From positions 1 through 64,000 of the IMG/VR virus record IMGVR_UViG_3300046010_015054: a stretch of 64,000 nt of DNA; one strand, given 5' to 3'. Origin of the DNA: a virus. The position numbers and the translations under genes are program-made. Shown in pieces: positions 2,487 through 2,563 of the stretch (positions within the stretch are counted from its first letter, which is position 1; every line of letters starts with the position of its first letter). The notes beneath the pieces are model-generated. The model saw nothing but the letters and a program-made list of their open reading frames with translations, did not search any database and had not been told where the DNA came from.

Positions 2487-2563
2487 TTGGAGAAATGGGA
2501 CTCGAACCCACATGTAACCACTTACCCTTTCTACAAGGTATAAGCTTGAGGGGATATTCTCCA
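2487..2563 (-). ncRNA. non-canonical tRNA-like RNA with CT-TAT-AC loop and displaced D-like hairpin
   Basis: Acceptor TGGAGAA/TTCTCCA, T-arm GTGGG-TTCGAGT-CCCAT, no D-arm at the normal position. Confidence 0.7.

What the first reader, a model, noticed from the sequence alone, without database searches (positions are those of the whole stretch)
2487..2563. Rearranged tRNA-like RNA with a UAU loop next to tRNA-Ile2(CAT)
Seen: TGGAGAA-TATC-CCCT-CAAG-[CTTATAC]-CTTG-TAGAA-AGG-GTAA-[GTGG]-TTAC-AT-GTGGG-[TTCGAGT]-CCCAT-TTCTCCA-A. The acceptor and T-arm are normal. The D-arm is missing from its usual place, the anticodon-like arm is extended by a CCT/AGG helix, and a GG-containing hairpin sits where the variable arm would be. 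The 7-nt loop CU-UAU-AC would read AUA, the same codon served by the adjacent lysidine-type tRNA. Inference: an alternative-architecture tRNA, possibly a TilS-independent AUA decoder, or a tRNA mimic.
Basis: partly seen in the sequence, partly recalled or inferred. Interest (0 to 1): 0.7.

Follow-up and report, generated by a model that had tools for sequence, protein, structure and literature searches.

The report
Phage isoleucine tRNA with swapped core
This 77-base gene in a lake phage's tRNA cluster is most likely a working isoleucine tRNA for the AUA codon that has every standard tRNA part, but with the D-arm pieces and the anticodon arm joined in a different order; many phages share this layout, gene finders miss it, and I found no paper describing it.

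Summary
The element at window 2487-2563 (minus strand) is real. It lies 5 nt from tRNA-Gln and 4 nt from a lysidine-type tRNA-Ile2(CAU), in the tRNA array of a complete 170-kb, 34% GC lake phage. ARAGORN skips it, and Rfam's tRNA model scores 28.9 bits against a threshold of 29.

Comparative data correct the rest. Forty-seven distinct 77-nt homologues align without gaps. The GG "hairpin" shows no covariation.

The sequence maps exactly onto a canonical tRNA in which segment 10-21 (D-stem 5' strand plus D-loop) and segment 22-48 (D-stem 3' strand, anticodon arm, 5-nt variable loop) have changed places, with a 3-nt linker added.

An anticodon-blind search found 69 distinct relatives: 63 UAU, 4 GAU and 2 CAU. 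A73 and C74 are near-invariant and 18% encode CCA. In 37 loci the only other tRNA nearby is Arg(UCU).

Relatives occur unannotated in cultured Streptomyces phages and a crAss-like phage. Charging and decoding are inferred, not shown.

Other agents of this scan reported the same family on other DNA. I reached the swap model before reading their notes.

The parts
2487..2563 (-). Whole 77-nt gene: segment-swapped tRNA(UAU). RNA position i corresponds to window coordinate 2564-i.
   Evidence: sequence. Rfam tRNA 28.9 bits against a gathering score of 29. Family model R1 96.7 bits, against 23.4 bits or less for the canonical tRNAs of the window.
2557..2563 (-). Acceptor stem, 5' strand (RNA 1-7, UGGAGAA)
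   Evidence: Pairs with 70-76. All 7 pairs carry compensatory changes in the family; 97.6% of cells paired.
2555..2556 (-). U8 A9 connector
   Evidence: Invariant in 47 of 47. Corresponds to canonical U8 and N9.
2551..2554 (-). RNA 10-13 (UCCC), equivalent to the D-stem 3' strand (canonical 22-25); C11-C13 pair with G39-G37
   Evidence: Pairs 11-39, 12-38 and 13-37 covary. At least 10 different complementary triplets occur across size classes.
2550..2550 (-). C14, equivalent to position 26
   Evidence: Invariant. The assignment is inferred from segment lengths.
2533..2549 (-). Anticodon arm (RNA 15-31, canonical 27-43): 4 covarying pairs 16-19/27-30, an unpaired U15/U31 on top, and loop CUUAUAC with anticodon UAU at window 2542-2540
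   Evidence: 16-30, 17-29, 18-28 and 19-27 are paired in all 47 sequences, all with double changes; 15-31 is unpaired in 46 of 47. Loop positions 32, 33, 35, 36 and 37 are near-invariant.
2528..2532 (-). A32-A36 (AGAAA), a 5-nt segment equivalent to the variable loop 44-48, here leading back to the D-stem
   Evidence: G33, A34, A35 and A36 are invariant. The tertiary role is inferred.
2524..2527 (-). G37-U40 (GGGU), equivalent to the D-stem 5' strand (canonical 10-13)
   Evidence: Covariation with 11-13.
2515..2523 (-). A41-A49 (AAGUGGUUA), a D-loop equivalent (A14, R15, G18, G19, A21)
   Evidence: A41, G45 and U47 are invariant; A42, U44, G46 and A49 are at least 90% conserved. It has the same 9-nt pattern as the D-loop AGUCGGUUA of the neighbouring tRNA-Ile2. 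The Arg-type relatives in L039 add an A right after GG, the A20 position.
2512..2514 (-). C50 A51 U52, an extra 3-nt linker into the T-stem
   Evidence: C50 and A51 are invariant; U52 is at least 90% conserved.
2495..2511 (-). T-arm (GUGGG UUCGAGU CCCAU)
   Evidence: All cells paired; 3 pairs carry compensatory changes. T-loop consensus UUCRANU.
2487..2494 (-). Acceptor stem 3' strand (UUCUCCA) and discriminator A (window 2487). The next base, 2486, is C74.
   Evidence: A73 in 89 of 90 and C74 in 89 of 90 family members; full CCA in 16 of 90.
2408..2482 (-). Neighbouring canonical tRNA-Ile2(CAU), lysidine type, 4 nt downstream
   Evidence: ARAGORN and Rfam. Best E. coli matches are genes annotated tRNA-Ile, 83-85% identity, median two places per genome.
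2569..2640 (-). Neighbouring tRNA-Gln(UUG), 5 nt upstream

Best explanation
The gene encodes a functional elongator tRNA-Ile with anticodon UAU that reads AUA for this AT-rich phage. It is transcribed with the neighbouring tRNAs (Pro, Gln, this gene, Ile2). The 5' end is presumably cut by RNase P. The 3' end is trimmed to A73-C74 and completed by the host CCA-adding enzyme. The acceptor/T-arm minihelix is canonical (7 + 5 bp). The core is not a cloverleaf. Canonical segment 22-48 (D-stem 3' strand, position 26, anticodon arm, 5-nt variable loop) comes directly after U8-A9. Canonical segment 10-21 (D-stem 5' strand and D-loop) comes after it, joined to the T-stem by a 3-nt linker. The D-stem (C11-C13 with G39-G37) therefore encloses the anticodon arm and can stack on it, as in a normal tRNA. 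The displaced D-loop keeps A14, R15 and G18-G19 available for U8 and the T-loop. The three changed joints (9 to 22, 48 to 10, 21 to 49) link residues that are neighbours in the canonical L-shape, so an L-shape of normal dimensions is plausible. Host IleRS would charge it (A73, A35, U36, A37), and U34 reads AUA without lysidine, that is, without TilS. Shown here: the sequence anatomy, conservation, covariation, the anticodon spectrum, the 3'-end signature and the genomic context. Inferred: the folding into an L-shape, processing, charging with isoleucine, and use on the ribosome.
For: Structure: a gapless alignment of 47 distinct homologues. Helices 1-7/70-76, 11-13/37-39, 16-19/27-30 and 53-57/65-69 covary; 0 of 500 shuffles reach the observed score, and slid controls collapse. 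RNAalifold predicts the same fold unaided. The 11 highest mutual-information column pairs are all model pairs. The 3-bp helix appears with at least 10 different complementary triplets over size classes 76-83 nt. The unpaired core residues U8, A9, C14, U31, G33-A36, A41, G45, U47, C50 and A51 are invariant.

tRNA function: in the anticodon-blind sample the anticodons are UAU 63, GAU 4 and CAU 2 of 69 distinct sequences. Position 34 varies while A35 and U36 are fixed. A73 occurs in 89 of 90 and C74 in 89 of 90. Encoded CCA occurs in 16 of 90, against 1.6% by chance and 22% for canonical tRNAs of the same loci. The gene is spaced 4-5 nt from its neighbours in a tRNA array, on the coding strand. 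In 37 loci the only other tRNA within 3 kb is Arg(UCU), the other classic rare-codon decoder. The phage uses AUA at 17.6 per 1000 codons, 24% of Ile. Arg-anticodon members of the same lineage (L039; 69 and 59 bits with R1) have an extra A after GG in the D-loop-like segment. By established knowledge this is A20, the ArgRS identity element.

Precedent: an unmodified UAU tRNA-Ile reads AUA in a B. subtilis strain lacking tilS (PMC3919564).
Against: There is no direct evidence of a mature RNA, of charging or of decoding. The RNA-library contigs laid on the region are ambiguous: one contig matches 2409-2509 without mismatch, but these are assembled contigs and tRNA reads of other organisms pile up there. 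Rfam's tRNA model is just sub-threshold at 28.9 bits and ARAGORN makes no call. The D-like stem has only 3 Watson-Crick pairs, and U10/U40 and U15/U31 are mismatches. The proposed tertiary contacts involve invariant bases, so covariation cannot test them. The phage already carries tRNA-Ile2(CAU) for AUA, so a second AUA decoder is redundant on paper. Position 38 is C rather than the A38 of E. coli tRNA-Ile.
Confidence: 0.7

Rival explanations
1. A tRNA mimic that is not used on the ribosome. It would keep the acceptor/T-arm and an Ile-like anticodon loop to bind or divert a host factor, for example a tRNA-targeting defence nuclease, a modification enzyme, or IleRS itself.
For: The non-cloverleaf core, the sub-threshold tRNA model score and the redundancy with the adjacent tRNA-Ile2(CAU). 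The same phage also carries other tRNA-frame RNAs without a decoding arm, at 3886-3960 and 4356-4444.
Against: A decoy would not need wobble-position switching confined to the Ile box (UAU, GAU, CAU) with A35 and U36 fixed. It also would not explain Arg-anticodon derivatives that acquire the A20-equivalent, or the recurrent two-gene set with tRNA-Arg(UCU). The A73-C74(-CCA) signature matches real tRNAs.
Confidence: 0.12
2. A functional tRNA whose core folds, or as a D-armless Y-shape. The anticodon arm would be extended and an independent GG hairpin would sit in the variable position, with no reconstitution of a D-stem/D-loop geometry.
For: In this one sequence GUAA/UUAC can form 4 pairs, and that fold is 1.4 kcal/mol better than the swap fold. 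Pairs 40-49 and 42-47 are invariant, so they cannot be excluded. D-armless tRNAs can work in E. coli translation (PMC11551756).
Against: Pair 41-48 is unpaired in 22 of 47, 39-50 in 5 of 47 and 13-38 in 17 of 47, whereas 11-39, 12-38 and 13-37 covary. The segment lengths (4+1+17+5 and 4+9) match the canonical segments exactly. The D-loop pattern A-R-Y-U-G-G-U-Y-A is kept.
Confidence: 0.1
3. A functional tRNA charged with an amino acid other than isoleucine, for example Met or Leu, so that AUA is recoded or misread.
For: Many IleRS enzymes handle a UAU anticodon poorly (general knowledge). One GenBank record labels the Streptomyces-phage homologue tRNA-Leu.
Against: GAU and UAU versions share the same body and co-occur in single phages. 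A73 is kept. The phage ORFs look ordinary under code 11, with about 90% coding coverage. The 'Leu' label carries no supporting note.
Confidence: 0.05
4. A decaying tRNA pseudogene, or a chance tRNA-like string.
For: It is missed by gene finders.
Against: There are 124 copies in 109 loci from unrelated phages. The core is invariant and the stems covary.
Confidence: 0.01

Closest known systems
Bacterial tRNA-Ile(UAU), e.g. Mycoplasma mobile, or the G34U suppressor of B. subtilis lacking tilS (PMC3919564)
   Same: UAU anticodon in a CUUAUAN loop, A37 and A73. Expected to read AUA without lysidine.
   Different: Those tRNAs are ordinary cloverleaves. Here segments 10-21 and 22-48 are exchanged, and the top anticodon-stem pair is always U/U.
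Lysidine-dependent tRNA-Ile2(CAU), present next door at 2408-2482
   Same: Same codon (AUA), same array, similar D-loop sequence.
   Different: Ile2 needs host TilS and is a canonical cloverleaf (67 bits with RF00005, against 28.9 bits for the candidate).
Mitochondrial and engineered D-armless tRNAs (PMC7609411, PMC11551756)
   Same: No D hairpin between position 9 and the anticodon arm. Shows that translation can tolerate non-cloverleaf tRNAs.
   Different: Those lack the D-loop and the GG/T-loop contact altogether and are shorter. This RNA keeps a D-stem and a D-loop equivalent at full length (77 nt), relocated.
Circularly permuted tRNA genes of Cyanidioschyzon merolae (PMC3978253)
   Same: The order of tRNA segments in the gene differs from the canonical order.
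   Different: There the 3' half precedes the 5' half, and processing through a circular intermediate restores a canonical mature tRNA. Here the termini are canonical and the swap is internal, so the mature RNA itself should be non-cloverleaf. No BHB motifs are present.
allo-tRNA(UAU) with 8/4 or 9/3 acceptor/T branches (PMC5389517)
   Same: An unusual tRNA shape found in metagenomes and phages, with UAU among the commonest anticodons.
   Different: Allo-tRNAs have a D-arm in the normal place, a long V-arm and 8/4 or 9/3 stems. This RNA is 7/5 and has no D hairpin.
Viral tRNA-like structures such as the TYMV TLS (from my own knowledge, not checked here)
   Same: A tRNA-like L-shape reached with a different strand connectivity.
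   Different: Those are 3'-UTR elements with a pseudoknotted acceptor, not free-standing genes in tRNA arrays with a canonical acceptor stem.

Membership tests
tRNA, canonical cloverleaf (Rfam RF00005) | 7-bp acceptor stem with an unpaired discriminator | tested here: met
   UGGAGAA/UUCUCCA plus A. All 7 pairs covary in the family.
tRNA, canonical cloverleaf (Rfam RF00005) | 5-bp T-stem with a 7-nt UUCRANY loop | tested here: met
   GUGGG UUCGAGU CCCAU; all cells paired.
tRNA, canonical cloverleaf (Rfam RF00005) | Anticodon stem with a 7-nt loop, U33 and purine 37 | tested here: met
   CUUAUAC. Four covarying pairs; the fifth (U15/U31) is never paired.
tRNA, canonical cloverleaf (Rfam RF00005) | D stem-loop between position 9 and the anticodon arm | tested here: not met
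   Only 5 nt lie between A9 and the anticodon stem. The Rfam alignment deletes the 15 D-arm positions.
tRNA, canonical cloverleaf (Rfam RF00005) | Score at or above the curated gathering threshold, or a call by a tRNA finder | tested here: not met
   28.9 bits against 29. ARAGORN makes no call in the window and misses 121 of 124 family copies.
tRNA-Ile isoacceptor | Anticodon in the Ile box (GAU, k2C-AU or UAU) with A37 | tested here: met
   UAU here. In the family, 63 UAU, 4 GAU and 2 CAU of 69.
tRNA-Ile isoacceptor | Discriminator A73 | tested here: met
   A here; 89 of 90 in the family.
tRNA-Ile isoacceptor | Aminoacylation by IleRS and decoding of AUA | not testable with these tools
   Needs biochemistry. 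No phage IleRS or TilS was found.
Segment-swapped phage tRNA lineage (model R1, built here) | Full-length match to the covariance model, well above canonical tRNAs | tested here: met
   96.7 bits, against 23.4 bits or less for the window's other tRNAs. The window sequence was in the seed, but 46 other seed sequences are independent contigs.
Segment-swapped phage tRNA lineage (model R1, built here) | 3-bp helix between positions 11-13 and the three bases before the UAAYUGG segment | tested here: met
   C11-G39, C12-G38 and C13-G37.
D-armless (mitochondrial-type) tRNA | Loss of the D-loop and of the G18-G19/T-loop elbow; shortened molecule | tested here: not met
   The conserved segment AAYUGGUYA with invariant G45 is retained, and the length is 77 nt.
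allo-tRNA (8/4 or 9/3) | Acceptor stem of 8-9 bp with a T-stem of 4-3 bp, a D-arm and a long V-arm | tested here: not met
   7/5 configuration and no D hairpin. Definition from PMC5389517.
Circularly permuted tRNA gene | 3' half encoded upstream of the 5' half; termini inside the gene | tested here: not met
   The acceptor 5' and 3' strands are at the two ends of the gene.

The most novel reading that the evidence does not exclude
Phages of very different hosts (lake and marine phages, crAss-like phages, cultured Streptomyces phages) use a natural elongator tRNA that is not a cloverleaf. Canonical segments 10-21 and 22-48 are exchanged in the chain, yet the molecule rebuilds the D-stem, the D-loop/T-loop elbow and the L-shape. 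It is charged and decodes: mainly Ile/AUA, with Arg and Tyr derivatives. This would contradict the published statement that all known bacterial-system tRNAs are cloverleaves. A bolder add-on is that the rewiring is selected because it escapes a host factor that acts on the canonical core, such as a nuclease or a wobble-modifying enzyme.
Probability: 0.6. Interest if true: 0.88.

Novelty: new variant of a known kind. Interest (0 to 1): 0.8.

Why it matters
The cloverleaf is treated as universal for cytosolic and bacterial tRNAs. [quoted passage not shown]

A conserved, covarying, widely spread phage tRNA with an internal segment swap would show four things:
- The L-shape can be reached by another chain topology in nature.
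- RNase P, the CCA-adding enzyme, an aaRS, EF-Tu and the ribosome accept that topology.
- Phage tRNA repertoires are under-counted, since ARAGORN missed 121 of 124 copies. AUA decoders in particular are missed, which biases codon-usage and host-adaptation analyses.
- The layout offers a ready-made, possibly orthogonal scaffold for tRNA engineering.

Homologues occur in cultured Streptomyces phages, so the claim can be tested directly at the bench.

Tried and rejected
1. Single-sequence folding. The MFE (-21.6 kcal/mol, z = -1.9) breaks the T-arm. Thermodynamics alone cannot decide, so I relied on comparative data.

3. Expression. Four lake metatranscriptome runs were laid on 1500-6500. tRNA bins have depth and the ORF stretches 2836-3002 and 5508-5674 have none. 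One contig (X19, record 3) matches 2409-2509 with no mismatch. However, these are assembled contigs, tRNAs of other organisms map at 92% likeness, and the joints look like assembly artefacts. This does not count as proof of transcription or of mature ends.

4. Promoter and terminator scan of 1500-6500: at chance level.

5. Phage-encoded helpers. No CCA-adding enzyme, IleRS or TilS was found. The weak PP-loop hit is QueC.

6. AUA usage in carrier loci against non-carrier tRNA-bearing phage loci. There is only a small excess after GC correction (about 2.6 per 1000 codons, Mann-Whitney p = 0.01). The test is confounded, so this is weak support.

7. My first structural filter for 'anticodon arm at position 15' was too lax, because it accepted canonical D-arms. 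I replaced it with the covariance model and nhmmer.

8. The ARAGORN 'tRNA-Ile(tat)' at 4355-4444 as a second UAU decoder. Rejected: it is a tRNA-frame RNA with an irregular insert.

9. Membership of allo-tRNAs, permuted tRNA genes or D-armless tRNAs. Defining features are not met (see Membership tests).

10. Literature. Four full-text searches and five papers yielded no description of this layout. The library lacks most subscription journals, so absence is not proof.

Full report
WHERE IT IS. The window is the first 64 kb of a 170,105-bp IMG/VR virus record judged complete. It has 33.9% GC, and 178 of 179 long ORFs lie on the minus strand. DNA runs that hold it are lake-water metagenomes. All tRNA genes sit in one minus-strand array at 1.7-5.9 kb. 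The finding lies inside a tight block: tRNA-Pro(UGG) 2719-2646, 5 nt, tRNA-Gln(UUG) 2640-2569, 5 nt, the candidate 2563-2487, 4 nt (CAAU), tRNA(CAU) 2482-2408. The best E. coli matches of the CAU tRNA are genes annotated tRNA-Ile, at 83-85% identity with a median of two places per genome. The other CAU tRNA, at 4173-4244, has the C1 mismatch and the GGG/CCC anticodon stem of an initiator (the assignment rests on my own knowledge).

THE OBSERVATION. The quoted string is exact. ARAGORN does not call it. Rfam's tRNA model aligns it end to end at 28.9 bits, 0.1 below the gathering score. It does so by deleting the 15 D-arm positions and inserting 18 nt in the variable region.

RELATIVES. An exact-pattern scan of IMG/VR that fixed the loop and the T-arm found 27 loci. 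I then ran a scan that fixes only the D-loop-like segment and the T-arm and is blind to the anticodon (GTAANTGGT N2-8 GGGTTCRANTCCC). Forty-seven distinct 77-nt homologues align without a single gap (A1). A covariance model built from them (R1) scores the candidate at 96.7 bits and the window's canonical tRNAs at 23.4 bits or less. It gives 140 matches at E-value 0.0001 or better, nearly all at 40 bits or more, in the 246 loci held. An nhmmer pass gives 85 distinct sequences, and 124 copies were placed in 109 loci. ARAGORN overlaps only 3 of the 124, with wrong ends.

Outside metagenomes, BLAST finds the element in 77 Streptomyces phage records and two other phages. In Streptomyces phage Jay2Jay the GAU version scores 92.6 bits and is unannotated. 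In crAss-like phage cr130_1 a UAU version scores 82.1 bits and is unannotated. One record, EGole, annotates exactly these 77 nt as 'tRNA-Leu' without comment. In 185,579 prokaryote species genomes, a strict pattern found only two contigs, both from CPR MAGs and both in tRNA arrays. The lineage is essentially a phage one.

STRUCTURE. Pair counts on A1:
- All seven acceptor pairs carry compensatory changes.
- All four anticodon-stem pairs 16-19/27-30 do too, with every cell paired.
- Three T-stem pairs do too.
- The three pairs C11-G39, C12-G38 and C13-G37 do too (12-38: CG 28, UA 15, GC 2, UG 2, none unpaired).

None of 500 column shuffles reaches the observed covariation, and sliding the partners by one to three columns collapses it.

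The proposed hairpin 39-42/47-50 has no double change at all and is unpaired in 22 of 47 at 41-48.

RNAalifold, given no structure, returns the same four helices. The eleven highest mutual-information column pairs are all pairs of this model. Across the longer size classes (78-83 nt, with a longer connector after the anticodon arm) the same 3-bp helix recurs. At least ten different complementary triplets are seen: CCC/GGG, CUC/GAG, CGG/CCG, ACC/GGU, CGU/ACG, CGC/GCG, CAG/CUG, CCA/UGG, CCG/CGG and CCU/AGG. The unpaired core (U8, A9, C14, U31, G33-A36, A41, G45, U47, C50, A51) is invariant, more conserved than the stems.

WHAT THE LAYOUT IS. Read against canonical numbering, the 77 nt divide as follows:
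- acceptor 1-7;
- U8, A9;
- UCCC = 22-25;
- C = 26;
- 17 nt = anticodon arm 27-43;
- AGAAA = a 5-nt variable loop, 44-48;
- GGGU = 10-13;
- AAGUGGUUA = a 9-nt D-loop, 14-21, with A14, R15, G18, G19 and A21; it has the same pattern as the neighbour's AGUCGGUUA;
- CAU = an extra linker;
- T-arm;
- acceptor 3' strand;
- A73.

So the canonical blocks [10-21] and [22-48] have changed places, each keeping its canonical length (sequence).

The following rests on the classic tRNA tertiary map (U8-A14-A21, A9 in the groove at 12-23, 10-25-45, 26-44, 15-48, G18/G19 with the T-loop; established knowledge, not computed here). The three new joints, 9 to 22, 48 to 10 and 21 to 49, connect residues that are neighbours in the L-shape. 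The stack of four anticodon-stem pairs, U/U, one junction layer, three D-stem pairs and U/U has the normal ten layers. That an L-shape forms is an inference.

EVIDENCE THAT IT WORKS AS A tRNA.

(a) Anticodon. In the anticodon-blind sample, 69 distinct sequences carry UAU (63), GAU (4) or CAU (2). Position 34 varies while A35, U36 and A37 are fixed. GAU and UAU versions co-occur in single phages.

(b) 3' end. A73 occurs in 89 of 90 and C74 in 89 of 90. The full CCA is encoded in 16 of 90, against 1.6% expected by chance and 22% in the canonical tRNAs of the same loci. The window's copy has A-C-A-A.

(c) Context. The gene sits in arrays with tRNA-like spacing. In 37 loci the only other tRNA within 3 kb is tRNA-Arg(UCU), giving the AGA + AUA 'rare codon' pair.

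(d) Demand. The phage uses AUA 17.6 times per 1000 codons (24% of Ile). Its other tRNAs read A- or U-ending codons: UCA, ACA, CCA, CAA, AGA, CUA and UUA.

(e) Isotype logic in derivatives. Two members of the lineage in L039 have Arg anticodons (ACG and UCG; 69 and 59 bits). Both have an extra A directly after GG in the displaced D-loop. This is the A20 position, the main ArgRS identity element (the identity rule is established knowledge). Three 94-95-nt relatives with anticodon GUA keep a long variable arm, as bacterial tRNA-Tyr does. Their D-stem forms with the loop of that arm (ACGG/UCGU against ACAU/AUGU; CUGC/GCAG against CUCC/GGAG), which makes a pseudoknot.

The phage encodes no IleRS, TilS or CCA-adding enzyme, so host enzymes must serve. 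An unmodified UAU tRNA-Ile is known to read AUA and sustain a tilS-deleted B. subtilis (PMC3919564). 'TilS-independent AUA decoding' is therefore a reasonable but untested consequence.

WHAT IS NOT SHOWN. There is no direct proof of transcription, ends, charging or decoding. The four metatranscriptome runs are assembled contigs with heavy cross-mapping of foreign tRNAs. The single-sequence energy does not favour the swap fold. The tertiary contacts involve invariant bases and cannot be tested by covariation. Redundancy with tRNA-Ile2(CAU) is unexplained. Possible reasons are independence from TilS capacity, dosage, or escape from a host factor. The invariant unpaired top pair of the anticodon stem (U15/U31) recalls the 4-bp-stem tRNAs proposed to have altered decoding (PMC13092985). 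This is only a lead.

COMPARISON AND NOVELTY. It is not a canonical RF00005 member, because the D hairpin is absent and the score is sub-threshold. It is not an allo-tRNA: it is 7/5 and lacks a normally placed D-arm (PMC5389517). It is not a mitochondrial-type D-armless tRNA, because the D-loop equivalent is kept. It is not a permuted tRNA gene, because the termini are canonical (PMC3978253). The 2020 review of non-canonical tRNAs has nothing like it. A 2024 paper states that all known bacterial tRNAs are cloverleaves and that natural arm-less tRNAs exist only in mitochondria. Four full-text searches found no description.

Earlier agents of this scan reported the same family on other genomes. 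Those notes are not independent evidence. My tests here reproduce their main claims and add three things: the anticodon-blind census, the A73-C74/CCA signature and the A20 observation.

VERDICT. Most likely (0.7) it is a working, segment-swapped tRNA-Ile(UAU). Novelty: a new variant of a known kind. Interest 0.8.

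Noticed in passing
window 3886-3960 (-) and 4356-4444 (-): Two paralogous tRNA-frame RNAs. They share the acceptor AGUCAGG/CCUGACU+A, a Leu-like D-arm and the same T-arm, but have irregular, unrelated inserts where the anticodon arm should be. ARAGORN calls them 'tRNA-??? (aaat)' and 'tRNA-Ile (tat)'. Another agent of the scan described them on this window (e1-5740059). The 'Ile tat' call is probably not an AUA decoder.
   Followed up: partly
window 4947-5009 (-): Full-length match to Rfam freshwater-1 RNA (RF02979) at 68.3 bits, just under its gathering score of 72, between tRNA-Arg(UCU) and tRNA-Leu(UAG).
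   Followed up: no
window 4449-4765 (-): Weak full-length match to the manA RNA motif (RF01745), 27.8 bits against a gathering score of 55.2, E = 0.00026, inside the tRNA array.
   Followed up: no
L039:9402-9478 (-) and L039:9491-9566 (-): Two members of the same swapped-core lineage carry Arg anticodons (ACG, UCG) and discriminator U. Both have an extra A right after GG in the displaced D-loop, the A20 position used by ArgRS.
   Followed up: partly
L017:10875-10968 (-), L247:7151-7244 (+), L155:3109-3203 (+): tRNA-like genes of 94-95 nt with anticodon GUA (Tyr) and no D hairpin. A covarying helix joins the 5' connector (ACGG or ACAU) to the loop of a covarying long variable arm, making a pseudoknotted version of the swapped core.
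   Followed up: partly
L003, L006, L007, L008, L010, L018, L019, L021, L022, L024 (e.g. L007:2708-2800 +): Canonical-D-arm phage tRNAs with anticodon UAU and a long variable arm. The hairpin loop of that arm reads CUGAUAA, CUGAUAU or CAGAUUA, a copy of a tRNA-Ile(GAU)-like anticodon loop. Noted earlier by the scan as e1-121598.
   Followed up: no
L248:1494-1570 (Streptomyces phage Jay2Jay NC_029098, 75237-75313); L253:294-370 (phage EGole): Cultured Streptomyces phages (77 records) carry the GAU version of the swapped tRNA between a nucleotidyltransferase gene and an FtsK-like gene. It is unannotated in nearly all records and labelled 'tRNA-Leu' in EGole.
   Followed up: partly
L250:2629-2705 (+) and L251:1756-1832 (-): The only prokaryote-genome hits to a strict family pattern are two CPR MAG contigs (Paceibacterota, Nealsonbacteria). 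One lies in an array of 20 tRNAs. These contigs may be phage or prophage DNA binned with the MAGs.
   Followed up: no
L252:521-1399 (-) = genome 65520-66398, just outside the window: The phage encodes a QueC homologue (121 bits), suggesting 7-deazaguanine (preQ0-type) nucleotide or DNA modification.
   Followed up: no
window 54148-55800 (-): The phage encodes a GroEL-type chaperonin (PHROG 5725, E = 2e-150). There are also two glycosyltransferases and an aminotransferase at 36-47 kb.
   Followed up: no
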